44,019 bases of DNA from an uncultured delta proteobacterium. Its GTDB lineage: Bacteria; Myxococcota; Myxococcia; Myxococcales; Anaeromyxobacteraceae. A program made the translations under genes and the position numbers. The notes under the pieces were generated by a model that was given only the letters and a program-made list of their open reading frames with translations, was not told where the DNA came from and ran no database searches. Where the stretch lies: positions 1 to 44,019 of the forward strand of contig CAVYBH010000018.1 in NCBI GenBank assembly GCA_963766715.1. The letters run 5' to 3'. The first letter of the stretch is position 1. Each line of letters begins with the position of its first letter. This document shows, piece by piece, positions 1 to 41,383 of this stretch.

Positions 1-89
1 TGCTCCAGGAGGGCACGGATCGCCTCCTCCAGCTTCACGATCTCCGACCGCAGCGCATCGCGCTTCGCCAGGCGTTCCTCTTGCGTCAC
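1..89 (-). CDS. Partial CDS (N-terminus only, runs off the window), coiled-coil-like, function unknown
   Basis: GTG at 89-87 with an AGGAG RBS (100-96); translates MTQEERLAKRDALRSEIVKLEEAIRALLE; divergent from the cytochrome cluster. Confidence 0.6.
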   Translation of the reverse strand, partial: MTQEERLAKRDALRSEIVKLEEAIRALLE

Positions 90-340
90 AATCGACTCCT
101 CCCCGAGATGCGGCCCGGCGCGGGAGAGCCGCGCGGGGCGAGGGGGCATCATAGCCCCGTCGCGCTCCCCGGAGGAAGCGATTGCGCTCGATTCGGGGCG
201 GATCCCCGGGCCCTTCCGGGGCCACGCCCGGTGTTCACTGTCAGTTCATCTGAAGGCGCCGGATGCGTGACCCCAGCCGGGCCGCGCCGGTCCCCGCTGG
301 GCAGCTCTCTCATAATCTCTCACCCCAGAGGGTCACTCGA

Positions 341-356
341 TGGCCTGTCCCGTGCA
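341..356 (+). promoter_or_regulatory. Candidate sigma54 (-24/-12) promoter for the giant cytochrome
   Basis: TGGCCTGTCCCGTGCA has GG(342-343)-N10-GC(354-355) spacing, about 70 nt upstream of ATG 429. Confidence 0.4.
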
Positions 357-428: not shown

Positions 429-3400
429 ATGTCGGGACATAGGTCGGGCGGCACCCACATCGGATTTTCTGTCGTTGTCCTGGCAGCTTGCGTATCCGTG
501 ATATCGGCCTGCTCGAGTCCGCGGCCGGCAGCCCTTACCGGTCCTGGCGATGGCGCATCGGGCGGCAGCAAAGCTTGCACCCTGTGCCATGGCGACGGGA
601 CACGGGTAGCGACCCCGACGAACCCCTATCTTGCCGCCGCCCCCCCGAACGGGACGAACGGGGAGACCAGTGCCTCGAGCCCGCGCCGTCGGCGCCCACC
701 TGCTCCACCTCCAGGGCGGTGCGCTCCGTCCCGCCATCGCCTGTGCCGAGTGCCACGTGGTGCCGACCATCGCGGCCCACGCGAACTCGAAGGTCGAGGT
801 GACCTTCGGCCCGCTCGCCACCACCGGCGGGGCCGTCCCCACCTGGAACGGTTCCTCCTGCTCGGCCTCCTACTGCCACGGCGCCTTCACCGGCGGCGAC
901 GCGACCAACGCCCCCACCTGGACCGCGCCCCGGTCGGCCTCCTGCGGAACCTGCCACGGCCTTCCCCCCGCCGCGCCCCACCCCGACGTGACCGGCAGCG
1001 CGAGCTGCGGCGACTGTCACGCCGGGCTACACGGCCACGTCGGTCAACCTCGCCAACCACATGAACGGCAAGGTCGACGTGGCCGGGCTCGCCTGCTCGT
1101 CCTGCCACGGCGACGCGACCCGCGCCGACACCGCCCTCAATCCCCAGTTCTCCGCCGCGCCTCCGCGCGGGACGAAGGGGGAGACCGCCACCTCCTCCCG
1201 CGCCGTGGGCGCCCACGCCATCCACCTCAGGGACGGCAACTTCCTCGCCTGCACCGAGTGCCACGTCCTCCCCGCCAGCGTCCCCCACTCGAACGGGACC
1301 GTGGAGATCGCCTTCGGCCCGCTCGCCCGCACCGACGGCGCGAGCCCGTCCTGGAACGGCACCACCTGCTCGAACGTCTACTGCCACGGCGCCTTCGCCG
1401 GCGGGAACACCGCCAACGCCCCGATCTGGACGGCCCCGGTCGCGGCCTCCTGCGGCACGTGCCACGGCCTTCCGCCCGTCGCGCCGCACCCGCAGAACGC
1501 CGACTGCTCGAGCTGCCACACCGGCTACACCGCCTCCACCGTCAACCCGGCGCTCCACCTCAACGGCAAGCTCGACGTGAGCGCGCTCGGCTGCAGCTCC
1601 TGTCACGGCGACTCGACGCGCGCCGGGACCGCGCTGAATCCCCTGCTCTCCGCCGCCCCGCCCAAGGACACGGGCGGCAACACCGCCACCTCCTTCCCCG
1701 GCGTCGGCGCCCACCAGGCCCACCTCGAGCGCGGGCACGCTTCGCGGCCCCCTGGCCTGCAGCGAGTGCCACGTCGTCCCGTCGGGCACGCACCCGAACG
1801 GCGCCGTCGACCTCGTCTGGGGCCCGCTCGCCAAGGCGGGCGGCGCGACGCCCGGGTTGGAATCCGGCCACCCACACCTGCACCAACTACTGCCACGGCG
1901 CCACGCTCGGCGGCGCCGCGCACGCCACGCCGTCCTGGACCGGCGGCGCCGCGGAGGTCGCCTGCGGAAGCTGCCACGGCCTGCCGCCCCCGGCGCCGCA
2001 CCCGGCCATCTCGGCGACGACCAGCTGCGGCGACTGCCACACCGGCTTCACCCGGACGTCCGTGAACGCGGCCACCCACGCGAACGGGGTCGTCGATCTG
2101 GCCTCGATGACCTGCACCTCCTGCCACGGCGACTCGACCCGCGCCGCGACCACGCTGAACCCGCTGCTCCCCGCCGCCCCGCCGAAGGACAGCCAGGGCA
2201 ACACCGCCACCACCGTCCGCGGCGTGGGCGCCCACCAGCGCCACCTCGTCGCCGGCGCGCTCACGGCCGGCGTGGCCTGCAGCGAGTGCCACGCCGTCCC
2301 GACCAGCAACTCCCACTCGAACGGCACGGCCGACGTCCTGTTCGGAAGCCTGGCGAGGACGGGCGGCGTCGCGCCGACCTGGAACGGAGCCGGCTGCGCG
2401 GCCAGCTACTGCCACGGCAACTTCAAGAACGGCAACCTCTCCTACGTGCCGAACTGGACCGCGCCCGCGGCCACCGCCTGCGGGACGTGCCACGGCAGCC
2501 CCGGCAGCCCGGCGCCCGGCGGGACCCACCCGGTCGTCACCGCCGCGACGAGCTGCGGCTCGTGCCACGCCGGCTACACGGCCACGACGGTGAACGCCGG
2601 CCACCCACGCGAACGGCGTGGTGGACGTCTCGTCGATGACCTGCACGACCTGCCACGGCAACTCGGCCCAGACGGCCAGCCAGGCCGCGCCGCTCTACGC
2701 CGCGCCGCCGGTCGACACCAAGGGCAACACCGCCACCACCGCCCGCGGCGTCGGCGCCCACCAGGCCCACCTCGTCGGCACGAACCTCCACACCCCGGCG
2801 ATCGCCTGTGGCGAGTGCCACACCGTCCCGGCCTCGGTCGCCCACTCCACCGGCACGGTCGACATGACCTGGGGAACGCTCGCCAAGGCAGCCGGCGCGA
2901 CGCCCAGCTGGACCGGCACCACCTGCACCAACTACTGCCACGGCGCGACGATGGCTGGCGGCACCCTCCGGTCGCCGACCTGGACCGGCGGAGCGACCCA
3001 GGTCGCCACCTGCGGCGCCTGCCACGGCGCCCCGCCGGCCGCTCCCCACGTCCAGAACTCGGCCTGCGGCAACTGCCACACCGGCTACACCTCCACCACC
3101 GTGAACAAGAGCACCCACGTCGACGGCACCGTCACCGTGGTGCCGCTCACCTGCTCCACCTGCCACGGCCTGGCCACCCGCGCCGCCACGGCGCTCAATC
3201 CGCAGCTCGCCGCCGCCCCGCCCTCCGACACGCGCGGGAACTCGGCGACCTCGGCTCGCGGAGTGGGCGCGCACATCGCCCACCTCACCGGCACCACGCT
3301 CCGCACCGCGGCGCTGGCCTGCACCGAGTGCCACGCCGTGCCCACCGCCCAGACCCACGCGAACGGGACCGTCGAGATGGCCTGGGGATCGCTCGCCCGC

Positions 3401-6378
3401 TCGGGCGGCGCGACGCCGGCCTGGACCGGGACCACCTGCACCAACTACTGCCACGGCGCCAACCTGACCGGCGGGACGATCACCGCGCCCACCTGGATCG
3501 GCGGCGCCACCCAGGTGGCGGGCTGCACGGCCTGCCACGGCGCCCCGCCCCCGGCTCCGCACTCCACGAGCACGGCCTGCGGCTCCTGCCACACCGGCTA
3601 CACCGCCACCTCGGTCGACAAGGCCACCCACATGAACGGCGTGGTGGACACGTCCGGCATGAACTGCACCTCCTGCCACGGCACGGCGTCCCGCGCCGCC
3701 ACCGCCACCAACCCCCAGCTGCCCGCCGCTCCTCCGGTCGGGACCAAGGGTGAGACCGCCACCACGACCCGCGCCGTCGGCGCCCACCAGGCCCACCTCG
3801 TGAACACCCGGCTCCGCTCGGCGGCCATCGCCTGCAACGAGTGCCACACGGTTCCCACGAGCACGTCCCACTCCACCGGCGTGGTCGACATGACCTGGGG
3901 CCCCCTGGCCCGCACCAGCCCGGCCGTCCCGACCTGGACCGGAACGCACCTGCACCAACTACTGCCACGGGTCGACCCTGGCGGGCGGAGCCATCACGAC
4001 CCCCAGCTGGACGGGCGGCGCGACCCAGGCCGCCGCCTGCAACGCCTGCCACGGCGCGCCCCCGGCGCTCCCGCACTCGCAGAGCACGGCCTGCGGCTCC
4101 TGCCACGCCGGCTACACCGCGACCACCGTCAACCTGGCCACCCACCTGAACGGCACGGTCGACGTCTCGGGGATGACCTGCACGTCCTGCCACGGCACGG
4201 CGACCCGCACCGCCACCGTCCTGAACCCGCAGCTCGCGGCGGCCCCGCCGGTCGGGACCCAGGGTGAGACCGCGACCACCACCCGCGCCGTCGGCGCCCA
4301 CCTCGCCCACCTCACCGACGGGACGCTCCGCGGCGCCATGGCCTGCACCGAGTGCCACGCCGTCCCCGCGAGCACCAGCCACTCCACCGGCGCCGTCGAC
4401 CTGACCTGGGGCTCGCTGGCCCGGACCGGCGCCACGACGCCGACCTGGAACGGAACCGCGCTCACGTGCACCAACTACTGCCACGGCGCCACCCTGGCGG
4501 GCGGATCGCTCGCCGTCGCCAAGTGGACGAACGGCGCCGCCGACGTGACCTGCGGCAGCTGCCACGGGTCGCCGCCTCCGGCGCCCCACCCCAGCCTCGT
4601 CGCGGGCACGAGCTGCGGCAACTGCCACCCGGGCTACACGGCCACCACCGTCAACGCCGCCACCCACGTGAACGGAACGGTCGACGTGATCGCGATGACC
4701 TGCACCACGTGCCACGGCACGGCCGGCCGCGCCGCCACCGCCCTCAACCCGCAGCTCGCCGCCGCCCCGCCCGTCGGGACCAAGGGTGAGACCTCGACCA
4801 CGACCCGCGCGGTCGGCGCCCACCAGGCCCACCTCGTGAACACCCGGCTCCGCAGCGCCGCCATCGCCTGCTCCGAGTGCCACACCGTTCCGACCTCGAC
4901 ACAGCCACTCCACCGGCGTGGTCGAACATGACCTGGGGCACGCTCACCCGGACCGGCGGCGTCGTTCCCACCTGGACCGGCACCACCTGCACCAACTACT
5001 GCCACGGCGCCAACGCTCACCGGCGGCGACCATCACGGCGCCCACCTGGACCGGCGGCGCGGCCCAGGCCTCCGCCTGCACCGCCTGCCACGGCGCGCCT
5101 CCTCCGGCGCCCCACTCGACCAGCACGGCCTGCGGCTCCTGCCACACCGGCTACACGGCGACCACCGTCAACACCGCCACCCACATGAACGGCACCGTCG
5201 ACGTCGCCGCCATGACCTGCACGTCCTGCCACGGTACGGCCAGCCGCGCGGCCACCGCCCTCAACCCGCAGCTCGCCGCCGCTCCGCCCGTCGGGACCAA
5301 GGGTGAAACCCTCACCACGACCCGCGCGGTCGGCGCCCACCAGGCCCACCTCGTGAACACCCGGCTCCGCTCGGCCGCCATCGCCTGCTCCGAGTGCCAC
5401 ACCGTTCCGAGCTCGACCAGCCACTCCACCGGCGTGGTGAACATGGCCTGGGGCACGCTCACCCGGACCGGCGGCGTCGTTCCCACCTGGACCGGCGCCA
5501 CCTGCACCAACTACTGCCACGGCGCCAACCTCACCGGCGGCGACCATCACGGCGCCGACCTGGACCGGCGGCGCGACCCAGGCCTCCGCCTGCACCGCCT
5601 GCCACGGCGCACCTCCTCCGGCGCCCCACTCGACCAGCACGGCCTGCGGCTCCTGCCACACCGGCTACACCGCGACCACCGTCAACACCGCCACCCACAT
5701 GAACGGCACGGTCGACGTCGCCGCCATGACCTGCACGTCCTGCCACGGCACGGCGGCCCGGGCCGCGACCACGCTCAACCCGCAGCTCGCCGCCGCTCCG
5801 CCCGTCGGGACCAAGGGTGAGACGGCGACCACGACCCGCGCGCGTCGGCGCCCACATGGCCCACCTCGTGAACACCCGGCTCCGCAGCGCCGCCATCGCC
5901 TGCTCCGAGTGCCACACGGTGCCCACCTCGACCAGCCACTCCAACGGGACGAGGGACCTCGTCTTCGGGACGCTCGCGAAGACCGGCGGGAAGGTCCCGG
6001 CCTACAACGCGACGTCGCTCGGGTGCTCCGCCACCTACTGCCACGGCAACTTCACCGGCGGCGAAGACCACGGCGATCCCGCTCTGGACCGGCGCGGCCA
6101 TGACCTGCACCTCCTGCCACAACATGCCGACGACGAGCACCGGCCAGCACTCGAAGCACATGGGCTTCTCCGGGGTCACCTGCGCCACCTGCCACAGCGG
6201 GATCGCCACGGGCTCGACCACCACCGCCGCCATCGTGGGTCCGGCCCTCCACGTGAACGGCACGAAGGACCTGGCGTTCAGCGGCACGTACAGCGGCAGG
6301 GCCGTGTCCATGACGGTCACGCGCAGCGGCACCAGCGTCTCCTGCTCCGGCTCCTGCCACAGCAGCAAGACCTGGTAG
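429..6378 (+). CDS. Giant lipoprotein multiheme cytochrome c (GSu CxxxxCH...CxxCH-domain type), ~1978 aa after indel correction, ~56 heme-type motifs
   Basis: GGGAGGGG RBS; signal peptide with lipobox-like Cys (VVVLAACVSVISAC); 11 modules of ~513-520 nt continue across frames to TAG 6376-6378. Removing 13 single-base insertions (near 680, 1022, 1730, 1850, 2597, 3947, 4900, 4923, 5015, 5027, 5541, 5840, 6062) gives 5937 nt, a whole number of codons. Manual count: 44 CxxCH plus 12 CxxxCH/CxxxxCH. Confidence 0.85.
575..6200 (+). repeat. Intragenic tandem repeat: 11 copies of a ~171-173-aa five-heme module
   Basis: First CxxCH of each module at ~575, 1093, 1592, 2113, 2642, 3152, 3665, 4179, 4701, 5218, 5732; consensus CTSCHG...NPQLAAAPP.GTKG.T....RAVGAH.AHL...ACxECH.VP....H..G.....WG.L...G...P.W.G..CTNYCHG...P.W......CxxCHG.PP.APH....CGxCH.GYT.T.VN.ATHxNG.VD. 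Confidence 0.9.
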
Positions 6379-6387
6379 GAAATCAAA

Positions 6388-6422
6388 CGACCGGCCCCCC
6401 CTTTCCGGGTGGGGGCCGGTCG
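6388..6422 (+). terminator. Strong hairpin between cytochrome 1 and 2 (terminator/attenuator or mRNA-stability element)
   Basis: 12-bp perfect stem CGACCGGCCCCC(6388-6399)/GGGGGCCGGTCG(6411-6422), followed by only a weak U-tract (gtgtacttcttct). Confidence 0.55.
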
Positions 6423-6509: not shown

Positions 6510-8925
6510 ATGACGTCGATGCGAACCCCTGCTCTCGCGACCGCCCTCTCGCTTTCCCTGCTCGTTGCCGCGTGCGCCGATTCACGGCCCGCCACCTCGG
6601 GGGGACCGGGCGTCGTTTCGTCGGGCGCGCACACGGCCCACCTGTCCGGCGGGCCATTCGCGAACGCATATTCCTGTACGACCTGTCACGACAGCGCGTT
6701 CGCGGTCGTCTTCCCGCCCCCGTCGCTGGCGCGCTCGAACGGCGCGACTCCCGTCTTCGACCCGACCACCAAGACCTGCAGCAACGTGTACTGCCACGCC
6801 GGCGGCCCGGCGCTCACACTCGCTGGCGGGACCCTCCCGGTCCCGGTCTTCGAATCCGCCATCCACCGTCGCGTGCGGCGCCTGCCACGGCGCCCCGCCG
6901 CCGGCGCCCCACACGAGCAACGGCAACTGCGGCGTGTGCCACGACGGCTACACGTCCACCACGGTCAACAAGACGCTTCACATGAACGGCGTGCTGAACG
7001 TCACCTCGGGAGCCTGCACGGACTGCCATGGCGACGGCGCCCGCGCCGCCACGGTGCAGAACCCCCAGCTTCCGGCCGCGCCTCCCAAGGACACTTCCGG
7101 GAACACCTCGACCTCTGCTCCAGGCGTCGGCGCTCACCAGGCCCACCTGAACGACGGAACGCTGCGGCGAGCCATGGCCTGCACCGAGTGCCACGTGGTG
7201 CCGGGCGACCTCGCTCACGCGACCCAGCCTCTCCAGCTCACCTGGGGCCCGCTCGCCACGACCCAGGGCGCGACCCCGGCCTTCAACCCGACCTCGCTCA
7301 CCTGTAGCTCCACCTACTGCCACGGCGCGACGCTGAACGCCGGGGGCACGCTCACGAACCCGGTCTGGACCTCGGGTGCTTCCCGAATCGCCTGCGGCTC
7401 CTGTCACGCCGCCCCACCGCCGGCTCCCCACCCGCAGAACGCCAGCTGCGGCTCGTGCCACCCGGGCTACACCGCCACGACCGTCAACGTCGACCTCCAC
7501 GTGAACGGCGTGGTCGACCTCTCCACCCAGACCTGCACGGCCTGCCACGGCGACGCGACCCGCACGGCGTCGGTGCTGAATCCCCAGCTTCCGGCCGCTC
7601 CGCCCAGGGACACAGCCGGCAACACGGCCGCCACCGCCCCGGGCGTGGGCACACACCAGCTGCACCTGAACGACAACGCGATGCGGGGTGCATTGGCCTG
7701 CACTGAGTGCCACACGGTCCCGGCCGACGCCAATCACGCGACCCAGCCCCTCCAGCTCACCTGGGGGCCGCTCGCCACGACCCAGGGCGCGACTCCGGCC
7801 TTCAACCCGACCTCGCTCACCTGCAGCTCCACCTACTGCCACGGCAATTTCCAGTTCACCGCCGTGGTCAGCACGAGCTACACGATCTCCGGGAACAGGA
7901 CCTACGGGCCGGTCTTCAACGCCCCGGCGACCCAGGTCTGCGGCACGTGTCATGGCAGCGCCACGATCGCGACTCCGGTCGGTCACCCCGCGCTCGCGGC
8001 GACCGCCACCAACACCACCTGCAGCGTCTGCCACCCGGCGACCGTGAAGTCCGACGGGACCATCGACGTCGCGGGCGGCAAGCACATCGACGGGCAGGCC
8101 CAGGCGCTGGCGGCAGCGAGCCACCCGGCCGGCTGGATGATCCCGGGTGACCCCAACTTCCATGCCGGACCGGCCGGGCAGGCTCTTCAGGGCTGCATGA
8201 CCTGCCACGCTCCCACGCCTCCGGCGACGGTCGCGAACGTCGTGTGCAGCACCTGCCACGGCACGACCTGGGCGAACGCATGGGTCGACGCAACCAGCTG
8301 CACGATGTGCCACGGAACGTCCGGGCGCACCGGCGGAAGCGCGGCGAACCCGGTCAACGCGGCCCCGCCGGTCGGCACCTACGGGCACGAGACCGACGCC
8401 ACCCGCATCGGTGCCCACCTCGCTCACCTCCAGTCCACGCTTTCCCCGCCGGTCCAGTGCAGCGAGTGCCACGTGGTCCCCACCACGGCCCTCTCCCCGG
8501 GACACGCCAACGGACCCGACGCCACCATCACCTTCGGGACTCTCGCAAGGGCCGACGGGAGCAACCCGACCTGGAACGGGGCGAGTTGCTCGGCGAGCTA
8601 CTGCCACGGCAGCACGACGAACGGCGGGTCGCTCAAGACCCCGAACTGGTCCGGTGGGGCCTCACAGGCGGCGTGCGGCACCTGCCACAGCGTCGCCACC
8701 GCTTCGCTCGGGGGGCACCACGACAGCCCGAGCGAGCACCGGGTGGCCTGCTCCACTTGCCACGGCGACGGATACTCCTCGAGCGCCGTCACGGGCGCGG
8801 CCATCGCCACCCACGTCAACGGCCTGCCCATCACCATCAAGCCAGGCAACCCGCCTGGATGGGACCCGACGCGGCGCGGGTGCACGAACAGTTGCCACGG
8901 CAACCAGTTCGAGGGCCCTTGGTAG
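6510..8925 (+). CDS. Lipoprotein multiheme cytochrome c, ~804 aa, ~22 heme-type motifs
   Basis: GGAGGA RBS; lipobox LLVAAC; one +1 indel near 6852 joins the 6510 and 6565 frames; 17 CxxCH plus 5 CxxxCH/CxxxxCH; same module as gene 1; near-identical internal DNA repeat starting at 7216 and 7735 (519-nt period). Confidence 0.85.
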
Positions 8926-9024
8926 GCACGGGTCGGTCAGCGGTTTTTCCAGCCTGGCGACTTCTCGAATCCGGCCCGGTGGCCGACGCCGCTGCGCCCC
9001 AAAAACAGGGGTCGAGTCGCATCG

Positions 9025-9049
9025 TTGATTAACAAATTAGCATAATCAA
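9025..9049. promoter_or_regulatory. AT-rich inverted repeat upstream of cytochrome 3, candidate transcription-factor site
   Basis: TTGATTA-N11-TAATCAA inside an unusually AT-rich patch (~9020-9070). Confidence 0.45.
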
Positions 9050-9139
9050 ATCGGATATTTGTACGTAACATCGCGGACCAGCGCGACCCGTCCCATTTTA
9101 CCGAGCAGGGCCGATCTCCCAGGACTACAGTCGGGGGCT

Positions 9140-12100
9140 ATGCGCGCGCCCACATTGCGTCCCGGCCTCGCCCTGGTCTTGACCGCCGCCGTCGTCGCCG
9201 GAGCCGGGTGCTCCAAGGGCTCATCGACCTCCGGAACGAACACCCCCGCTCCTACCGGCGCCGTCCATACCCCGCACCTCCAGGGCGGCATGTTCTCGGC
9301 AGGCATGGCCTGCTCCGACTGCCACGCGCCCTCCGGCTTCGCGGTCGACTTCTCGCAGAACCCGGACGTCAAGGCCGCCGGCGCCACCTTCGACCCGGTG
9401 AACAAGACCTGCAGCAACGTCGCCTGCCACGGAAACTTCACCTTCGGCCCGGTGGCTGGCGCGAATGCGGTGGTGAACTGGAACGACCGCACGCCGCTTT
9501 CCTGCACCTCGTGCCACGGGATGCCGCCCACCGGTCACCCGGCGTATCCGGGTACCCCCGACGCGAGGTCCTGCTCTCCCTGCCACGTCGACAGCGTCAA
9601 GGCCGACGGAACCATCAACGTGGGCGCCGGGACGCACATGAACCTGAAGGCCGAGGTCTCCGGAGGCGCCTGCGCGAGCTGCCACGGCGACCCGGCTCGC
9701 GTCGCCACCGTGCCCGGCACCGACCCCGACCTGACCTCGGCGCCCCCGATCGCACCCTCTGGCTCGGCGGCGTCCGTCGTCGGCGCCCACCTGGCCCACA
9801 TGAACCCGAACCCGGGCGCCCTGGTCGCCGGGACCCCGGTGGCCTGCTCCGAATGCCACGTCGTCCCCGCCGACGCGACCCACGCCACCAGCCCTCCCGC
9901 GCAGAAGGTCGTGTTCGGGTCGCTGGCGACGGCTGGCGGTGCCGCTCCCTCCTTCGTGGCCGGGACCGCTGGATGCGCGGCGTCTTACTGCCACGGCAAC
10001 TTCGCCTTCAACGGCGTCTCCGGGGCGAACGCCACTCCGATCTGGACCGACGTCACCGCGATGGATTGCACCTCGTGCCACGGCATGCCCCCCACCGGGC
10101 ACCCGCCGGTCGTGGGCACGCCGAACGCAGCAGCCTGCTCGGCCTGCCACCCGTCCTCCATCAACCCGGACGGCAGCGTGACCGCCATGGGCGCGCACCT
10201 CGACGGCAAGGCGGACGTGGGCGCGCTCGGCTGCACCGATTGTCACGGCGACCCGGCGCGCACGGGGACGCTTCCCGGGACCGACCAGAACCTCGTCTCC
10301 TCTCCCCCGGTCGCGACGACCGGCGCACTGCCGGGCGTCGTGGGCGCCCACCTCGGGCACGTGAACCCCACCGCGGCGAGCGCACTCATGGGCCCCATCG
10401 CCTGCAGGGAGTGTCACGTGGTGCCCACCGACCTGGCTCACGCCAAGAACCCTCCCTCGCAGTCCGTGGTCTTCGGTCCGCTCGCGAAGACGGGCGGAGC
10501 GGCACCGACCTACGCGGCTGGGACGGCCGGCTGCGCGGCCTCCTACTGCCACGGCAACTTCACCTTCAACGGGGTCTCCGGATCGAACGCCACGCCCGTC
10601 TGGACCGATGCCACCCCCCTGACCTGCACCTCCTGCCATGGCATGCCGCCCACGGGCCACCCCGCCATCGCTTCCGGCACTGCCGCGTCCTGCGCCTCCT
10701 GCCACCCGAAGTCCATCAACGCCGACGGCTCGGTCAACCTCACGGACAGGGGCCACCTGAACGGCCTGCCCGACACGTCGGCCGTTGGCTGCGCCTCGTG
10801 CCACGGCGACCTGGCGCGCAAGGGAATCCTCCCCGGGACCGACCTGAACCTGGTCTCCTCGCCGCCGGTGGCGCCGCCCGGCGCGCCGGCCTACGCCGTG
10901 GGTGCGCACCTCGGCCACGTGAACCCCACCGCGGCCAGCGTGCTCATGGCCCCATCGCCTGCGCCGAGTGCCACGTCGTTCCCGCCGATTCCGCGCACGC
11001 CAAGAGTCCGCCCGCACAGAAGGTCGTGTTCGGGGCCTTCTCGAGGACCGGCGGCGCCCTCCCGACCTGGACGGCCGGGACCGCCGGTTGCGCGGCCTCC
11101 TACTGCCACGGCAACTTCACCTTCAACGGCGTGACCGGCGCGAAGGCCACGCCCATCTGGACCAGCACGGCGCTGCTCACCTGCACGTCCTGCCACGGGA
11201 TGCCGCCCACCGGCCACATCGCCACGACCTCCTCACGGCCGCCTCCTGCGCACAGTGCCATCCGGCCGCGGTCAACGCCGACGGGACCATCAAACCCGGC
11301 GAAGGGCCACCTGAACGGGAAGGCGGACGTGACCGCGCTCGCGTGCACCTCCTGCCACGGCGACGCGGCTCGCAAGGGAACGCTGGCCGGCACGGACGCG
11401 AACCTCGCCTCCGCGCCGCCGGTGGCCCAGCCGGGTGCGCCCTCCTACGCGGTGGGCGCCCACATGGGGCACATGAACCCGACGGCGGCGAGCTACCTCA
11501 TGGCGCCCATCGCCTGCAAGGAGTGCCACGTGGTGCCCGTCGATTCCGGGCACGCGACGAGCCCGCCCGCCACCGTGGTGGTCTTCGGCACGCTCTCGAA
11601 GACGGGCGGCGCCGTGCCCACCTTCAACGCCGGCACCGCGGGCTGCGCGGCCTCGTACTGCCACGGCAACTTCACGCTCGGCGCGGTCAAGGGATCGAAC
11701 GCCACGCCCGATCTGGACGAGCACCGCGCTCCTCACCTGCACGGCCTGCCACGGCATGCCGCCCACCGGCCACCCCGCCTACACCGGCACGCCCACGGCT
11801 GCGAGCTGCTTCCAGTGCCACCCGCAGTCGATGAACGCGGACGGCACCATCAAGCAGGGCGGCGGGCACATCAACGGGAAGGCCGACGGCGGAGGCTGCA
11901 CCGGTTGCCACGGGGACCCGCCGGCGACCGGGAAGCACACCCTCAGTGACCACCGCAACCGGCGATGCGACGCCTGCCACCCGACCGGCTACACCAACGC
12001 GACCGCCGGTGGCCCCCTTCCACCAGAACAGCGTCGTCGACATCGGCTCCCAGGCTGGCTACTGCTGCGGCCTCAAGGGCTGCGCCCCGGGTGCCACCCG

Positions 12101-12140
12101 GACGTGCGCCAACAGCTGCCACGGACGCGAGACCTGGTAG
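9140..12140 (+). CDS. Lipoprotein multiheme cytochrome c, ~999 aa, ~27 heme-type motifs
   Basis: [24 protein letters not shown] signal/lipobox; indels near 10950, 11230, 11292, 11708, 12007; 21 CxxCH plus 6 CxxxCH/CxxxxCH; module variant with CAASYCH and [12 protein letters not shown]. Confidence 0.85.
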
Positions 12141-12528: not shown

Positions 12529-13644
12529 ATGTCCCGCGCCTTCTCGTTGCCGTCCCTGATCCTGCTCCTCGCCTCCGGGCCCGCCTGCACGGCGCCCGAC
12601 CGGGCGCGCCCCGCCATGCCGGCGCCAGGTGCGCAGGCCGCGCCGGAATGGGAGCTCGAGAACCCGGTCCGGCCCCTGCCGATCCCGCCGCTGGGCGTCT
12701 CCGGCGAGGTGGCCGACCTGCAGCCCCGCGTCACCCCGGAGAAGGTCCGGCTCGGCCGCTGGCTCTTCTACGACAAGCGGCTCTCGTCCGACGGCACGGT
12801 CTCCTGCGCATCGTGCCACGAGCCAGCGGCGGGGTTCAGCGAGCGCGACCCGGTCTCCACGGGCGTGAAGGGCCAGAAGGGCACCCGCAAGGCCCCCCCG
12901 ATCCTCAACGCCGCGTTCCCCATCTACCCGGTGTGGTTCTGGGACGGGCGGGCCACCTCGCTCGCCGAGCAGGCCATGGGGCCCATGGAGAACCCGGTGG
13001 AGATGGGCATGACCCACGCCGGCATCGAGTCCACCGTCCGCGCCATCCCGGGGTACGCGCGGTACTTCATCGAGGCCTTCGGGGACGCCCACGTCGACGT
13101 GGACCGGGTCGCCGAGGCCATCGCCGCGTACGAGGCCACGCGCCTCTCGGGGAACTCGGCCTTCGACCGCTGGGACGCGGGCAATCCTGCCGCCCTCGAC
13201 GATCTCCAGAAGCTCGGCTTCGGCGTCTTCTTCGGGAAGGGCGCGTGCAACCAGTGTCACCTGGGGATGAACCTCACCGACTCGCGCTTCCACAACCTGG
13301 GAGTCGGCTGGCGCCAGCCCGCGCCGGGCGACGATCCGGCCAGCGGCTTCGCCGACCCGGGACGCGCCAAGGTGACGGGTCAGGCCCGGGACACCGGCGC
13401 CTTCAAGACGCCCACGCTGCGCGACGTCTCGCGCCGCGCCCCGTACATGCACGACGGGTCGGTGGCGACGCTTCGCGAGGTGGTCGAGCTGTACGACAGG
13501 GGCGGCGTCGCCAACCCCTGGCTGTCAGCCGAGATGAAACCCCTCCACCTCTCGCCGCGCGAGGTGGACGCACTCGTCGCCTTCCTGAAGGCGCTCGACG
13601 GCGAGGGCTTCGAGGACGTGGCGCCGCGCAGCTTCCCGCGCTGA
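12529..13644 (+). CDS. Diheme cytochrome c peroxidase / MauG family protein
   Basis: Signal peptide; [48 protein letters not shown] motifs; GGAG RBS. Confidence 0.9.
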
Positions 13645-17132: not shown

Positions 17133-17160
17133 AGTGTATGCAGCGCCGGCGCGCCGTCAA
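17133..17160 (-). promoter_or_regulatory. Sigma70-type promoter of the small basic protein
   Basis: TTGACG (17160-17155), 16-nt spacer, TACACT (17138-17133). Confidence 0.65.
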
Positions 17161-17176
17161 CCCGGACCTCCTCGCC

Positions 17177-18280
17177 TCAGGCGATCCAGTCCTTCTCCCG
17201 CAGCTTCGTCGGCAGGTACTCCTCGGTGATGAAGGAGATCCCGCGGCGTGAAAGGGCCTCGAGCTCGTACTTCACGCCCGACCGCACCATCTCCTGGATC
17301 TCGTGCTGCCACTGCTTGGCCTGGAACCAGGGGTACGCCAGCATCTGCTTGGCGCGGGCCACGTCCCCGTCGTCCATCTTGATGGCCACGTTGGACGGCA
17401 GCTTGTAGGTCACCTTGTCGAAGGAGGACAGCCCGATGAAGCGGGCGTCGGGCACCGCCATCCGCATCGACTCGAAGGCCAGGTTGATCGACCCCTGCTT
17501 GACCACCGAGTAGATGTAGAAGCCCCACGGGTCGTTGTCGACCAGCACGTACACCGGGAGTCCCAGCTCGCGGTGGAGGCGCTGCACCAGCCGCCGGACC
17601 CCGCGGGGCGGCTGCCCCCCGCCGTGGATGATGATGGCGTTCTGGCGCTTCCAGAACTTGTCCTCGTTGAACCGGCTCCAGACCGCGTCCTTCTCCACGA
17701 GCAGCACGTACTTCGCCTCGTGGCGCCCGAACTGGATGACGTTCTCCTCGACGATGGAGGGCACGCCCCAGCCGCCCGAGCCCATGCGCCGCAGGTCGAT
17801 GGTGTCGCCCGAGTCGCGGATGGTGATGGGGCCGACCATGGTCCCCTTCCGCGAGGCGAACAGGTGCAGCTCCTCGCGCAGCGCGTCGAGCGCCACCTCG
17901 ATGTCCTCGATGATGGGATCCGACTCGTCCTGCTCCTCGAAGGTGTTCTGCTTGGTGTCGCCGATGGTGTGCTTGGTGATGTAGTAGAGGTCGCGGATGC
18001 TGGTGGTCTTCCCCGACTCGATGAGCTCCTTGCAGGACTCCGAGACCAGGAAGGTCTGCATGAACTTCTTGGCCATCGAGACGTTGAAGAAATAGCGCTT
18101 CTGCCGCTGGTTCCCCAGCTCCACCACCCGCTTCTTCTCGTTGAAGCGCACGTTGGCCAGGCTGCGCACCGGGATCTCGACGAAGGGGTTGCCGCCCCCC
18201 TTCACCGCCCGGACGACCGACTCGGCCAGCTTCTCGATCTTCGCCACCGTCTTCTTCGACACCGCGTCCATGCGCGCCAT
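17177..18280 (-). CDS. top6A: DNA topoisomerase VI subunit A (Spo11 family)
   Basis: SIRDLYY catalytic Tyr motif, FEEQDESD, VEKDAV and DNDPWG TOPRIM motifs, KYELEAL. Confidence 0.95.
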   Translation of the reverse strand: MARMDAVSKKTVAKIEKLAESVVRAVKGGGNPFVEIPVRSLANVRFNEKKRVVELGNQRQKRYFFNVSMAKKFMQTFLVSESCKELIESGKTTSIRDLYYITKHTIGDTKQNTFEEQDESDPIIEDIEVALDALREELHLFASRKGTMVGPITIRDSGDTIDLRRMGSGGWGVPSIVEENVIQFGRHEAKYVLLVEKDAVWSRFNEDKFWKRQNAIIIHGGGQPPRGVRRLVQRLHRELGLPVYVLVDNDPWGFYIYSVVKQGSINLAFESMRMAVPDARFIGLSSFDKVTYKLPSNVAIKMDDGDVARAKQMLAYPWFQAKQWQHEIQEMVRSGVKYELEALSRRGISFITEEYLPTKLREKDWIA

Positions 18281-18283
18281 GGC

Positions 18284-20342
18284 CTACTCGTCCTCCTCGG
18301 AGCGCCGCGGGCGCCTCGACGTCTTCTCGGCCGCTTCCTCGAGCTTCGCGTCCTGCGAGGCGAGGTCGGCCTCGGTGACCTTCTCGGCCACCCGCATGAA
18401 CTCCCGGCGGATGGGGTCGGGGCTTCGCCCCACGATCTTGCCGATGGCCTGGGCCACCTCGTGGATGTAGAGCTCGAAGATGGAGCGGCGCTGGGCCTGG
18501 TAGTCGGCGTGCTGCCGCTTGCGGATGTGGGCCGCCAGCTTGCGGCCGCACTCCTGCGCGGCCAGCTGGATCTCCCGGAGGATCTCCGGGTAGTGGGCCA
18601 CCGCCTCCTTCGACTCGCTCGTGAAGGGCACCCAGACCGAGGCGATGTGCACGAGCAGCGCCATGGGCCCCACCGGCAGCGAGCCCTTGGGCTGGCTGAG
18701 CAGGTAGTTGCGCCAGTCGGTCTTCACGATCGCCTCGGTGATGCCGCAGGCGGCCTCGCTGGAAGAGGAGCGGGACCCGGTTGGCGAACCGGAAGAGCTC
18801 GATCTGCTTGTCGGCCGGCCAGCTGCCGCCGTAGGCGAGGCCCACCTCGACCTGGAACGGATTTCCCCGGTACACGCGGGGCGGACGCGTCACGGTGGCG
18901 ATGAAGTAGTCGTGACCCTTGATCTTCTCGACCCCCTCCTCGGCCTCCGGCTGCCCGGGCTCGGGGGGCGGCTCCTCGGCGGGCTTCGCCTTCTTGCCCT
19001 TCCCCTTCTTCTTCCCGGCCTGGTCGAGGTCGAGCTGCCCGTCCTCGCCGTCCGGCCCCTCGGTCTCGACCACCGAGAGGAAGGAGACGAGCCCCTGCCG
19101 CATCAGCGCGTCGCCGATGGGCGAGAGGCAGTTCACCGGCGGGGCCATGATCTTCGTCTTCTGGATGCCGGCGTGGAGCTTGGCGGCCAGGTCGCGGTCG
19201 CCGGCGATCTGGCGCGGACGGAGCCGCTCCTTGAGCCCGGCGGCGGAGAGGATCTCGCTCGCCACCTGGGAGGAGACCCGGCTGAAGGAGGTCTGGAGGA
19301 ACCCCTTCACGTCGTGGCTCTTGGAGTCCCCCGCCATCGTCATGAGCGCGCCCAGCTCGACGCCGTGCGGGTGGGGCCGGATCTCCAGCGCCTCCTTGGG
19401 GAGCTCGCTCGTGGCGCGCGGGAAGGAGAGCCGGGACTGCTTGGGCCGGACGTAGTGCACCACGCAGTGCGGGTTCGCGAGCGCGGTGTGCTCCACGTAG
19501 CGGTTCACGAACTTCTGGCCGGCCTGCCAGTTGGCGACGATCTCCAGCTCGACCCGGGTCCCGTGCTCCTGGTGCCAGTCCGGCAGCGCCTCGTCCCGCG
19601 TCACCACCGGGCTGTTCTTGCGCGTGTCGATCTGGATGTCGAAGGAGTGGGTCGGCTTGCCCTTGCCGGTGCGCGAGACCACGCGGATGGGCTGGCCGGT
19701 GGTGAGCTGCCCGTACATGGCCGCGGCGCTGATGCCGATGCCCTGCTGCCCGCGGGACTGCTTCAGCCGGTGGAACTTGGAGCCGTAGAGCAGCTGGCCG
19801 AAGATCTTGGGGGCCTGGGCCTTCACGATGCCGGGCCCGTTGTCCTCCACCGCCACCACGAAGCGCCCCTCGCCCTTGGTGAGCTCGCCCGAGGTCTCGA
19901 AGCCCAGGTCGCGGACCTCGATGGAGATCTCGGGAAGGATGCCGGCCTCCTCGCAGGCGTCGAGCGAGTTGTCGACGGCCTCCTTGATGGTGGTCAGCAG
20001 CGCCTTCGACGGGTTGTCGAAGCCCAGCAGGTGGCGGTTCTTGGTGAAGAACTCGGAGATCGAGAATCTCGCGCTGCCGGGTGGCCATCTGCTCGGCCGT
20101 GGCGCGGCGCTTGGGGCGTGGCGGCTCGGCACGGAAGGGGGGGCCGGGAGCTCTGCGGCCGGGAGCTCGGGCTGCCGTTCCGGCGGAGCCTTCGGCACGC
20201 CGGCCCGGGTGCCCACGCGCTTGGACGGCGCTCCCTTCGCGGCCACGCCCTTCGCCGCGGGCGCCCGGGGAGGCGGGGTCGCCACCGCCACGAGCTCGAG
20301 CTGCCGCTGACCCCGGTCCGATTTCGCCGCCTTCGCCGCCAT
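18284..20342 (-). CDS. top6B: DNA topoisomerase VI subunit B (GHKL ATPase)
   Basis: SISEFFTKNRHLLGFDN, KEAVDNSLDA, DNGPGI, GSKFH..QSRGQQGIGISAA, RFANRVPLL, VPFTSESKEA; indels near 20140, 20065, 18755. Confidence 0.93.
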
Positions 20343-20447
20343 ACCCGCCTCCGATATCGCCCGGATTCGCGTGTACCACGGACCGGACCCCGACGCTAAC
20401 TCTCGGACGGGCCACGGGAATTCCCGGAACCTTCGCTCCGGATCGGT

Positions 20448-20475
20448 TTGACCGGCTCCCGGGGCTGGTTACATT
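20448..20475 (+). promoter_or_regulatory. Sigma70-type promoter of htpX, probably leaderless
   Basis: TTGACC-N16-TACATT with an extended TGn; -10 element ends 7 nt before ATG 20483; no RBS. Confidence 0.6.
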
Positions 20476-20482
20476 GCGCCCC

Positions 20483-21431
20483 ATGGCATGGAACGAACCG
20501 ACCCCGACCTCGACGCGCGGAGCCACGGTCCGCAGCGCCCCGGCCCCGAAGATCGGCGGCTCGAAGCGGCTACCTCAAGACCTTCGTCCTGATGGCGGGC
20601 CTCATCGCGCTGCTGGGCATCCTCGGCAACATGGTGGGCGGCGCCCAGGGGATGCTGCTCTTCGGCGCGCTCGGCCTGGTGATGAACTTCGTCATGTACT
20701 GGTTCTCCGACCGGATCGCGCTGGCGACCAACGGGGCCCAGCCGGTGACGCGGGAGCAGCTCCCGGAGGTCTACGACATCGTCGAACGGCTCACGCGGAA
20801 GGAGGGGATGCCGATGCCGCGCATCTACCTCATCCCGTCCGAGACGCCGAACGCCTTCGCCACCGGGCGCAACCCGGAGCACGCCGCGGTCGCCGTCACC
20901 GAGGGGATCCTGCGCATCCTCGACCGCCGGCAGCTCGAGGGCGTGCTGGCCCACGAGCTCGCCCACGTGAAGAACCGGGACATCCTCATCGCCACCATCG
21001 CGGCCGGGCTGGCCGGGCTCATCGGGTCGCTCGGCCACATGATCCAGTGGGCCGGCATGTTCGGAAGCCTCGGGGCGCGCGACGACGGCGGCCGCGACAC
21101 CAACATCTTCGGCGCGCTGGCCTGGGCCATCCTGGCCCCCCTCATGGCCATGCTCATCCAGCTCGCCGTCTCGCGCTCGCGCGAGTACGCCGCCGACGCG
21201 ACCGGGGCCGGGATGACCGGCGATCCGGAGCCGCTGGCGCAGGCCCTGCTCGCGCTCGAGGGCGCCAACGAGCAGCGCCCGATGGAGCACGCCGGCCCCG
21301 CCACGGCCCACCTCTTCATCGTGAACCCGCTGCACGGACGGGCCTTCGCGAGCCTGCTCTCCACCCACCCGCCCATCGAGGACCGGGTGAAGCGGCTCCG
21401 CGAGATGCGGCCCGGCGTCCGGTTCACCTAG
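20483..21431 (+). CDS. htpX: Membrane zinc metalloprotease HtpX (M48)
   Basis: PNAFATGRNP, GVLAHELAHVKNRD, SRSREYAADA, LLSTHPPIEDRV; one indel near 20563. Confidence 0.92.
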
Positions 21432-21438
21432 GGGAAAC

Positions 21439-22068
21439 GTGACCGCCGTCCTCCCGCTCGCCGTCGCTGCGCTCCTGTGCGCAGGGCCGACCGGGAGCCT
21501 TCGCGACGCCGGGGACCTCCGCGACGTCGACGCGGCCTGGGATGCCGCGGTGGCGTCGCGGGACCAGGCGGCCTTCCTGTCCCGCGTGGCGCCGGACGCG
21601 GTCTTCGCCGGCGCCGCCCTGCAGGTCGGGCGGGAGGCCATTCGCGAGAAGTGGGCCCGCTACTTCGTCGCGGGCGGCCCGACCCTGCGATGGAAGCCGA
21701 CCGACTCGGGGGTCTCGCCCTCGGGCGACCTGGGGTGGACCATCGGGGACGCCGTCTTCGAGTGGAAGGAGAAGGGCACGGCGCCTTCCCCGGGACGCTA
21801 CGTGACCGTCTGGGCTCCGGGAGCGGACGGACGCTGGATGGCGGTGCTCGACGCGCCGCTCGAGCCCTCGCCTCCGGAGAAGGCCACCCGCAAGGCCGTC
21901 CGGACAATCACCTCCCGCGACGGCTCGCTGGAGGCCTCCATCGGCACCTGGGAGCGGGGCGAGGGACCCTCCCGCGCGACGGGCGCCTTCCTCTCGGTGC
22001 GGGAACGGCAGGGCGGCGCCTGGCACACGGTCATCGACAGCGAGGTCGTGGCTCCGCCCGCGAGGTGA
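21439..22068 (+). CDS. Exported NTF2-like (DUF4440/SnoaL-type) protein
   Basis: Signal peptide; LRWKPT...SGDLGWTIG...GRYVTVW....DGRW..VLD. Confidence 0.7.
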   Translation: MTAVLPLAVAALLCAGPTGSLRDAGDLRDVDAAWDAAVASRDQAAFLSRVAPDAVFAGAALQVGREAIREKWARYFVAGGPTLRWKPTDSGVSPSGDLGWTIGDAVFEWKEKGTAPSPGRYVTVWAPGADGRWMAVLDAPLEPSPPEKATRKAVRTITSRDGSLEASIGTWERGEGPSRATGAFLSVRERQGGAWHTVIDSEVVAPPAR

Positions 22069-41036: not shown

Positions 41037-41381
<345 letters not shown>

Positions 41382-41383
41382 TT

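What the first reader, a model, noticed from the sequence alone, without database searches (positions are those of the whole stretch)
429..6378. Hidden ~1980-aa, ~56-heme single-chain cytochrome made of 11 tandem five-heme modules
Seen: the ORF track shows only fragments, but the ~171-aa module continues across frames from a lipoprotein signal to one stop codon. Removing 13 single-base insertions restores one frame carrying 44 CxxCH and 12 CxxxCH/CxxxxCH motifs. Known: CxxxxCH...CxxCH-domain multiheme cytochromes occur in Geobacter and Anaeromyxobacter, but to my knowledge have little structural or functional characterisation. Inference: a membrane-anchored, covalently concatenated heme wire for extracellular electron transfer or electron storage, distinct from polymerised OmcS/OmcZ filaments.
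Basis: partly seen in the sequence, partly recalled or inferred. Interest (0 to 1): 0.85.

Follow-up and report, generated by a model that had tools for sequence, protein, structure and literature searches.

The report
Frameshift-hidden 56-heme wire cytochrome gene
Thirteen extra single bases, most likely sequencing errors, hide one long gene for a protein with 56 heme-binding sites in 11 repeated units; it is likely a membrane-anchored electron wire, and it is an ordinary-sized member of a named but structurally unsolved family in Anaeromyxobacter-like and Geobacter bacteria.

Summary
Observation confirmed. Window 429-6378 reads as one 1978-aa frame after 13 single-base insertions are skipped (no deletions, no stops). 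It has 44 CxxCH + 12 CX3-4CH motifs in 11 modules and a lipoprotein-type leader. The insertions are most likely assembly errors: other genes show the same +1 bias (41 vs 7), short-read contigs of related strains lack the base at 7 of the 13 sites, and intact relatives exist. The break density is, however, about 7 times the genome background. The protein belongs to TIGR01904/PF09698 (Geobacter OmcG/H/A-like; 40-heme Anaeromyxobacter protein). It is no record: a same-genus frame holds 94 motifs, published counts reach 87 and 113, and single-chain wires were already predicted for OmcA/G/H. Added here: each module is a triheme unit plus a diheme unit, each carrying as many spare histidines as hemes (likely all bis-His). 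A confident two-module model matches no solved fold. Modules 1-4 are conserved by position, while distal modules and the tip vary. A conserved sigma-54-type motif lies upstream, and two paralogues plus a MauG-like diheme gene follow. Best reading: a lipid-anchored, probably surface-exposed electron wire; untested. New member of a known kind.

The parts
341..356 (+). Conserved 16-base motif with GG-N10-GC spacing, read as a sigma-54 (-24/-12) promoter (the label is recalled consensus)
   Evidence: Unique in the own genome. Exact copies sit upstream of the orthologous gene in G001, G011 and twice in G013. 6 of 119 collection matches are followed by 3 or more heme motifs, 5 of them at 218-219 bases as here. 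rpoN is present.
429..6378 (+). Gene A: 1978-aa, 56-motif TIGR01904-family cytochrome, interrupted by 13 single-base insertions
429..512 (+). Lipoprotein-type signal peptide; Cys28 (510-512) is followed by Ser-Ser
   Evidence: Read from the sequence. Hydrophobic stretch plus lipobox in 155 of 240 relatives; many of the rest appear N-terminally cut.
567..2632 (+). Modules M1-M4 (567-1084, 1085-1582, 1583-2103, 2104-2632): anchor-proximal, positional orthologues across the genus
   Evidence: Coordinates. Best matches fall on the same-numbered module in G011, G001 and G013a, except that M1 is absent from P0001.
2633..5722 (+). Modules M5-M10 (2633-3142, 3143-3655, 3656-4169, 4170-4691, 4692-5208, 5209-5722): distal, lineage-specific; M9 and M10 are a recent duplication
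   Evidence: M9/M10 are 95% identical, with 13 synonymous and 8 residue differences. Both match one module of P0001. M5-M10 are 78-95% identical to P0001 modules and 50-63% to those of other species.
5723..6375 (+). M11: last full triheme unit plus a compact triheme cap ending in Trp
   Evidence: 6 motifs and 6 spare His. A C-terminal Trp is present in 94 of 240 relatives.
6388..6422 (+). GC-rich inverted repeat just after the stop codon
   Evidence: Read from the sequence; not called as a terminator by the scan; not folded
6510..8925 (+). Gene B: paralogous lipoprotein-type cytochrome, 22 motifs, 1 frame break; begins with a truncated triheme unit
9140..12140 (+). Gene C: paralogous lipoprotein-type cytochrome, 27 motifs, 4-6 frame breaks; begins with a truncated triheme unit
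12529..13644 (+). Diheme CCP_MauG-family protein with a lipoprotein-like leader; closes the cluster in the genus
   Evidence: PF03150 at 184 bits; below the cut-offs for MauG and MbnH; same position in G011, G013, G001, G010 and G005

Best explanation
This is one gene, broken in this assembly by 13 extra bases that are likely sequencing errors, for a predicted lipoprotein with 56 heme-binding motifs in 11 repeats that likely works as a lipid-anchored, single-chain electron wire on the cell surface. Shown: the frame, the motif counts, the family, and that each repeat is a triheme unit T (CxxCH, GxHxxH, CxxCH, HxxG, CX3-4CH) plus a diheme unit D (CxxCH, PH, CxxCH, HxxG), with one conserved spare histidine per heme. 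Inferred, step by step: (1) the protein is exported by Sec, matured by the cytochrome c assembly proteins in the genome and lipidated at Cys28; (2) every heme would be bis-His, so there is no open catalytic site; (3) T and D would fold locally and string into an elongated chain of about 70 nm if spacing is like that of published models, with a possible hinge at each D-to-T junction; (4) being far longer than a periplasm is wide, it would be displayed outside, perhaps by the type II secretion system, and pass respiratory electrons by hopping from the anchor end to minerals, humics or partner cells, holding charge as a side effect; (5) the repeat number and tip change by recombination at the distal end. 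Odds: intact gene about 0.9; surface wire, given intact, about 0.6.
For: Errors rather than decay: 13 of 13 breaks are +1, with no stop and no lost motif. In 136 other genes, 42 are broken, with 41 '+1' and 7 '-1' switches. Short-read contigs of related strains lack one base at or beside 7 of the 13 sites: 1024, 1727, 1866, 2596, 3947, 5542, 6063 (tables were cut to the best rows). P0001 is in frame and 78% identical over 1593 columns. Ligand count: 55 spare His at conserved positions plus the 6-for-6 M11 pattern (59 spare His in all). In 1124 canonical repeats from 283 proteins/ORFs, at least 2 His lie between h1-h2 in 1121 and at least 1 between h2-h3, h4-h5 and h5-h1 in 1123, 1124 and 1123; these His are 100% conserved in T and D alignments. 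T can repeat without D (126 cases). Model of M5+M6: pLDDT 89, pTM 0.77, junction blocks about 90. No catalytic or porin domain in the chain. PF01578 genes (3) and GspD are present. Geobacter OmcA/OmcG/OmcH are predicted long wires (PMC11492766), show the same T pattern by eye, are listed as needed for optimal Fe(III) or electrode growth (PMC2825233) and rise with current in one strain (PMC13130476).
Against: Break density in gene A is 2.2 per kb against 0.29 per kb in the control genes; repeats and a position at a contig start may explain it, but this was not shown. 6 of 13 sites have no listed read evidence, and the laid contigs are from other strains and can be paralogous repeats. The same insertion context recurs in the near-identical M9 and M10. 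No heme distances were measured. Covariation gave 2 T-to-D pairs but 0 D-to-next-T pairs at z>=4. No porin gene lies in the cluster, and MtrB/PioB and an OmcS-like query found nothing in this 85%-complete genome, so the electron donor to the wire is unidentified. One paper describes OmcG/OmcH as regulators of other cytochromes rather than as carriers (PMC13442872). No expression data.
Confidence: 0.57

Rival explanations
1. The protein is intact but mainly an electron store (capacitor): a flexible, membrane-tethered chain that folds back in the periplasm or on the surface and buffers respiration when acceptors fluctuate, without bridging a distance.
For: Proposed for the 40-heme A. dehalogenans protein (PMC2330069), whose database counterpart P0072 (40 motifs, 1330 aa) is 48% identical here. 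No coupling across module junctions. The three genes together hold 105 motifs. No adjacent porin.
Against: Modules 1-4 are conserved by position while distal modules and tips vary, which suits a directional stalk. A store would not need swapped tip domains. A two-module model has a defined relative pose (pTM 0.77).
Confidence: 0.2
2. The chain feeds or is processed by the co-encoded diheme CCP/MauG-family lipoprotein, for example by delivering electrons for peroxide reduction at oxic-anoxic interfaces, or it has a scaffolding or regulatory role for other cytochromes.
For: The diheme gene closes the cluster in G011, G013, G001, G010 and G005. Geobacter OmcG/OmcH are described as regulators of other outer-membrane cytochromes.
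Against: Clusters in G036, G028 and G017 show no such diheme gene in the stretches fetched. A two-electron enzyme does not need 56 hemes. About 390 bases separate it from gene C.
Confidence: 0.12
3. The insertions are real and gene A is a recent pseudogene.
For: Break density is about 7 times background. Geobacter multiheme cytochromes evolve fast and are often lost (PMC12977616, abstract and first part).
Against: All breaks are +1, as across the genome. No stop and no motif loss: each random substitution has a 2.0% chance of a stop and 6.9% of destroying a motif, so 65-130 neutral substitutions would leave no trace with P = 2e-3 to 5e-6; for only 13 substitutions P = 0.3 (the ratio of substitutions to indels is my assumption). 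Related strains lack the bases at 7 sites.
Confidence: 0.06
4. The gene is real but its module count is an assembly artefact (repeat duplicated, or chimeric with the paralogue on contig C13).
For: P0001 has one module fewer. The C13 paralogue is 83-85% identical to the distal part. No laid contig spans the gene.
Against: M9 and M10 differ at 21 codons, 13 of them synonymous. No exact internal repeat reaches 80 bases. M2-M9 are collinear with P0001.
Confidence: 0.05

Closest known systems
CxxxxCH/CxxCH domain c-type cytochromes (NCBIfam TIGR01904, Pfam PF09698) of Anaeromyxobacter, e.g. P0072 (A. dehalogenans, 40 motifs), P0011 (A. sp. Fw109-5, 58), P0010 (A. terrae, 58), P0006 (A. sp. SG17, 61)
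   Same: Same five-heme repeat, lipoprotein-type leader, length about 1300-2100 aa, 43-50% identity over the 443-aa test piece
   Different: Only module number, mix of CX3/CX4 motifs and tip; nothing categorical
Geobacter sulfurreducens OmcA/OmcH/OmcG (GSU2884-2882)
   Same: Tandem three-gene cluster. The same triheme unit, and in OmcG one diheme unit, seen by eye in the supplement sequences. Predicted long single-chain wires.
   Different: Mostly triheme units in a row rather than strict T-D alternation; fewer hemes; OmcG/OmcH leaders show no lipobox Cys by eye. Their operon has tandem cGAMP riboswitches; none was found here, where a sigma-54-type motif is conserved instead.
GSU1996 dodecaheme c7 concatemer (TIGR04257)
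   Same: Wire built by concatenating small heme modules in one chain
   Different: Score 28 against a cut-off of 40; no fold match; different repeat, lipid anchor, nearly five times as many hemes
Polymerised nanowires OmcS/OmcE/OmcZ
   Same: Presumed long-range heme hopping
   Different: Those polymerise from small subunits (PMC11492766). This is one chain of fixed length whose His count suffices within the chain; no sequence or fold match.
Periscope proteins (PMC8201768, abstract seen)
   Same: Anchored tandem-repeat protein whose repeat number varies, with a distal tip
   Different: Periscope repeats are near-identical and non-redox; here only M9/M10 reach 95%, and variation is shown between species, not within one

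Membership tests
TIGR01904 / PF09698 CxxxxCH-CxxCH cytochromes | Domain score above the curated cut-off | tested here: met
   TIGR01904: 90.1, 82.2, 63.9, 74.3 and 27.1 bits for five in-frame pieces against a cut-off of 27; the leader piece has no hit and the cap piece scores 21.9. PF09698: 24.5 against 21.7.
TIGR01904 / PF09698 CxxxxCH-CxxCH cytochromes | Several copies of the domain in one exported multiheme chain | tested here: met
   12 CX3-4CH motifs in one frame; multiple hits along C18:778-6071
TIGR01904 / PF09698 CxxxxCH-CxxCH cytochromes | Heme actually attached at all motifs, including CX3-4CH | not testable with these tools
   Needs protein; cytochrome c assembly genes are present
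Geobacter OmcA/OmcH/OmcG | Triheme repeat grammar and tandem gene cluster | tested here: met
   By eye on supplement sequences; not aligned
Geobacter OmcA/OmcH/OmcG | GEMM-I (cGAMP) riboswitch upstream of the operon | tested here: not met
   Rfam scan of the window and 5 related loci found only tmRNA
Geobacter OmcA/OmcH/OmcG | One-to-one orthology | not tested
   The Geobacter sequences were not held as searchable proteins
c7-type nanowire cytochromes (GSU1996, TIGR04257) | c7 triheme domain above cut-off, with c7 fold | tested here: not met
   28.1 bits against 40; no fold match at Z>=2 or E<=0.001. Generic PF14522 hits do pass their cut-off, and a missing fold match does not prove that folds differ.
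Polymerised nanowires OmcS/OmcE/OmcZ | Sequence or fold match to a filament subunit | tested here: not met
Polymerised nanowires OmcS/OmcE/OmcZ | Self-polymerisation into filaments | not testable with these tools
   No complex job was run
Porin-cytochrome (Pcc/Mtr) conduits | Adjacent porin gene | tested here: not met
   None among 37 window ORFs or 55 neighbour ORFs of relatives; PF11854 not found in the genome. Anaeromyxobacter-type Pcc porins were not searched.
Periscope proteins | Near-identical tandem repeats with length variation between strains of one species | tested here: inconclusive
   Repeats are 51-95% identical; one-module difference from the 78%-identical P0001; no within-species series available

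The most novel reading that the evidence does not exclude
A redox 'periscope': a single-chain, lipid-anchored heme wire of an unsolved fold, assembled from two self-ligating bricks (triheme T and diheme D), whose anchor-proximal modules are fixed while distal modules and tip domains are added, lost and swapped between paralogues by recombination, so that gene length sets how far (tens of nanometres) the cell can reach for an electron acceptor.
Probability: 0.3. Interest if true: 0.68.

Novelty: new member of a known kind. Interest (0 to 1): 0.38.

Why it matters
Anaeromyxobacteraceae are common metal reducers of wet soils, and 33 of 36 family genomes searched carry this repeat, yet no member of the family has a solved structure by the searches here. 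A one-module or two-module construct is now easy to define (T+D, about 171 aa, confident model), so the wire-versus-capacitor question can be tested directly. The case also shows how noisy assemblies and short-read fragmentation hide or undercount the largest cytochromes. This gene itself is not unusual within its family.

Tried and rejected
Size record: rejected (94 motifs in a G010 frame and 83 in a G028 frame; 87 with a spike at 56 in PMC11492766; 113 in PMC9250108). Solved relatives: a profile search gave only generic heme-motif hits (best E 7e-6, an octaheme protein); Foldseek and VIA-align found nothing for the two-module model or the lone T model (pLDDT 72). The idea that T is a circularly permuted c7 domain rests on recalled PpcA ligation and got no support from these searches; it is not claimed. 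Riboswitch control: none found. Sigma-70 promoter: none found. The exact 16-base motif is mostly chance in the genome collection: 113 of 119 matches have no heme cluster behind them. I first read L083 as a complete 7-module orthologue (note 2); its frame stops mid-module and more motifs follow, so that was dropped. The run search found no run with half of the words (best 0.27, wetland and sediment metagenomes), so this organism's own reads were not available and no habitat is claimed. The ESM Atlas returned only the same family and no structure search. The peat cytochrome preprint 10.64898/2026.05.27.727921 had no relevant passage. Earlier notes by place and by sequence: none. Cluster membership and accession numbers of the named relatives stayed unchecked. 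No complex prediction was run, because the open question is within one chain.

Full report
1. Observation. The window is the start of contig C18 of a 4.2-Mb, 18-contig, 72%-GC genome, 85% complete. Named best hits are Anaeromyxobacter proteins. Between 576 and 6343 the + strand holds 56 heme motifs in a regular order across shifting frames, against 0.22 on average in shuffles. Frameshift-aware alignment to the intact relative P0001 places 13 single-base insertions and no deletion. Skipping them gives 1978 aa with no internal stop, 44 CX2CH, 8 CX3CH and 4 CX4CH, ten modules of 166-176 aa and a final 217-aa module with six motifs. The calculated mature mass is 192 kDa, or about 227 kDa with hemes.

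2. Error or decay. I compared 185 ORFs of a same-genus genome with G000. 136 had a match of 60% or better; 42 of these are broken, with 41 '+1' and 7 '-1' switches in 167 kb, so the assembly has an insertion bias. Contigs from six public short-read runs, of related strains and not this organism, lack one base at or next to 7 of the 13 sites. The tables are cut, and the other six sites are not listed. P0001 is in frame and 78% identical over 1593 columns. No stop and no motif loss has accompanied the 13 indels. Against this, gene A has 2.2 breaks per kb, about seven times the control. Gene C and the C13 paralogue are also often broken and gene B only once; I infer poorer consensus in repeats but did not show it. 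A duplicated-repeat artefact is unlikely: M9 and M10 differ at 21 codons and no exact repeat reaches 80 bases.

3. Family and size. In-frame pieces pass TIGR01904 and PF09698. A search of longer proteins gave 887 hits among 7995 candidates scored. The 120 listed have 23-68 motifs, most in the same pattern. The repeat was found in 41 of 61 genomes, in 13 of 13 of the genus and 33 of 36 of the family without G000. Open frames in relatives carry 94, 83, at least 75, 66, 61, 54 and 50 motifs. In print: 87 as maximum with a spike at 56 in Desulfuromonadia (PMC11492766, section read), 113 elsewhere (PMC9250108, one passage) and 40 in A. dehalogenans with a capacitor proposal (PMC2330069, passages). 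PMC11492766 already predicts OmcA, OmcH and OmcG as long single-chain wires, and a 27-heme cluster representative as 350 A long with Fe-Fe under 15 A (section read). I did not show that this cluster is the same family. The G. sulfurreducens OmcG and OmcA sequences in its supplement show the same triheme pattern by eye; the supplement's structure figures were not visible to me.

4. Anatomy. Each module has five motifs and five aligned spare histidines. Across 1124 canonical repeats from 283 proteins and ORFs, which are not independent, the spare His fall 2 between h1-h2, 1 between h2-h3, mostly 0 between h3-h4 (1009 of 1124), 1 between h4-h5 and 1 between h5-h1. They are fully conserved in sampled alignments. 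The number of CxxCH between successive long motifs is mostly 4 (1124 cases), then 2 (126) and 6 (100). So the repeat parses as a triheme unit T with three His and a diheme unit D with two; T can follow T directly, and the chain starts and ends with T. One ligand per heme implies bis-His hemes and no open site (inference). A natural deletion hints at pairing. Of 17 signal-bearing proteins that start without h1, genes B and C included, 1 keeps the HxxG-type motif after h2 and 6 have any His in those 25 residues. Of 133 that start with h1, 54 match the strict motif and 132 have a His there (the loose count for the 17 is by eye, and they come from few lineages). The His after h2 therefore probably ligates h1. 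AlphaFold2 on M5+M6 gave pLDDT 89 and pTM 0.77 with little secondary structure; T alone gave 72 and 0.65. Neither matched a solved fold. No coordinates were returned, so heme distances were not measured. Mean-field covariation gave 21-23 pairs within T, 4 within D, 2 from T to D and none from D to the next T at z>=4, which fits a hinge at the module boundary or simply a conserved contact.

5. Locus and evolution. Genes A, B and C hold 56, 22 and 27 motifs. They are followed by a CCP_MauG diheme gene, an Rce1-like protease gene and topoisomerase VI. The diheme gene holds the same place in five same-genus genomes, the downstream order matches G011, and DUF1015 lies upstream in G011, G013 and G001. 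No porin gene was seen. A 16-base motif at 341-356 with sigma-54-type spacing is conserved upstream of the orthologues, rpoN is present, and no riboswitch was found, unlike the cGAMP-controlled omcAHG operon (PMC6456294, passages). M1-M4 match the same-numbered modules in other species at 58-74%, whereas M5-M10 match only P0001 well. M9 and M10 both match one P0001 module, and the distal part and cap are 83-85% identical in DNA to a paralogue on C13. Complete orthologues in G011 and G013 end in long multi-heme tails instead of the small cap. The array thus varies at the end far from the anchor.

6. Mechanism. Most likely: Sec export, heme attachment (three PF01578 genes), lipidation at Cys28, sorting to the outer membrane (no Asp at +2; recalled E. 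coli rule), surface display, perhaps through type II secretion (GspD present; precedent recalled from Shewanella), and electron hopping along about 70 nm (scaled). Indirect support from Geobacter: OmcG and OmcH are listed as needed for optimal Fe(III) or electrode growth (PMC2825233, passage), rise with current in one strain (PMC13130476, passage) and are described with other Omc proteins as mostly involved in Fe(III) reduction (PMC9961858, passages). They are also described as regulators (PMC13442872, passage). The donor is unknown. Anaeromyxobacter spp. have two-gene porin-cytochrome clusters elsewhere (PMC4245776, passages), which I did not search for; MtrB-type and OmcS-like queries found nothing here. 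Variable heme number among close homologues of other large cytochromes has been noted before (PMC7399161, passages), and length-variable surface stalks are known as periscope proteins (PMC8201768, abstract). Capacitor, diheme-partner, pseudogene and mis-assembly readings are weighed in the rivals.

7. Novelty. New member of a known, named and structurally unsolved family. Paper searches (open-access library only) showed no structural or biochemical study of a family member and no description of the T/D ligand grammar; subscription papers were not searched. Earlier notes of this scan describe similar proteins in other genomes. They are leads, not support. Interest 0.38.

Noticed in passing
G010:C28:30368-42073 (L020:5369-17074, - strand): Uninterrupted 3902-codon frame with 94 heme motifs of the same family, above the 87 maximum of the Desulfuromonadia survey; ends in a paired-CxxCH domain
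   Followed up: partly
G001:C8:312687-325725 and G013:C7:231537-244718: Frameshifted orthologues of gene A spanning about 13 kb each, likely over 4000 aa; G013 carries two tandem copies, each with the upstream motif
   Followed up: partly
G000:C13:89450-93530 and G000:C15:365150-366350: Further TIGR01904 genes in the same genome; the C13 one shares distal modules and cap with gene A at 83-85% DNA identity, suggesting module exchange
   Followed up: partly
G000:C13:18140-20617, - strand: 30 CxxCH motifs in 2.5 kb (about 27 aa per heme), no long motifs: a different dense multiheme protein
   Followed up: no
L031:292-5369 (G025:C137): CCP_MauG-like diheme gene, CcsA and ResB genes lie directly beside 66-motif family members, hinting at dedicated heme attachment
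   Followed up: no
L025:11394-12770 (G036): Hexaheme protein with an OmcS-like N-terminus (label recalled) next to a cluster of these giant cytochromes
   Followed up: partly
L081 (Acidobacteriaceae record): The same 16-base motif lies 261 bases before a 7-motif cytochrome of another type
   Followed up: no
window 9020-9080: AT-rich stretch with TTGAT...ATCAA inverted ends upstream of gene C; possibly a separate regulatory site
   Followed up: no
window 1-95, - strand: Start of a small conserved ORF, divergent from gene A and cut by the contig end; it precedes DUF1015 in relatives
   Followed up: no
window 17160-21641 and 41037-41383: DNA topoisomerase VI subunit B gene (A subunit beside it in G011) and a tmRNA gene
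   Followed up: no
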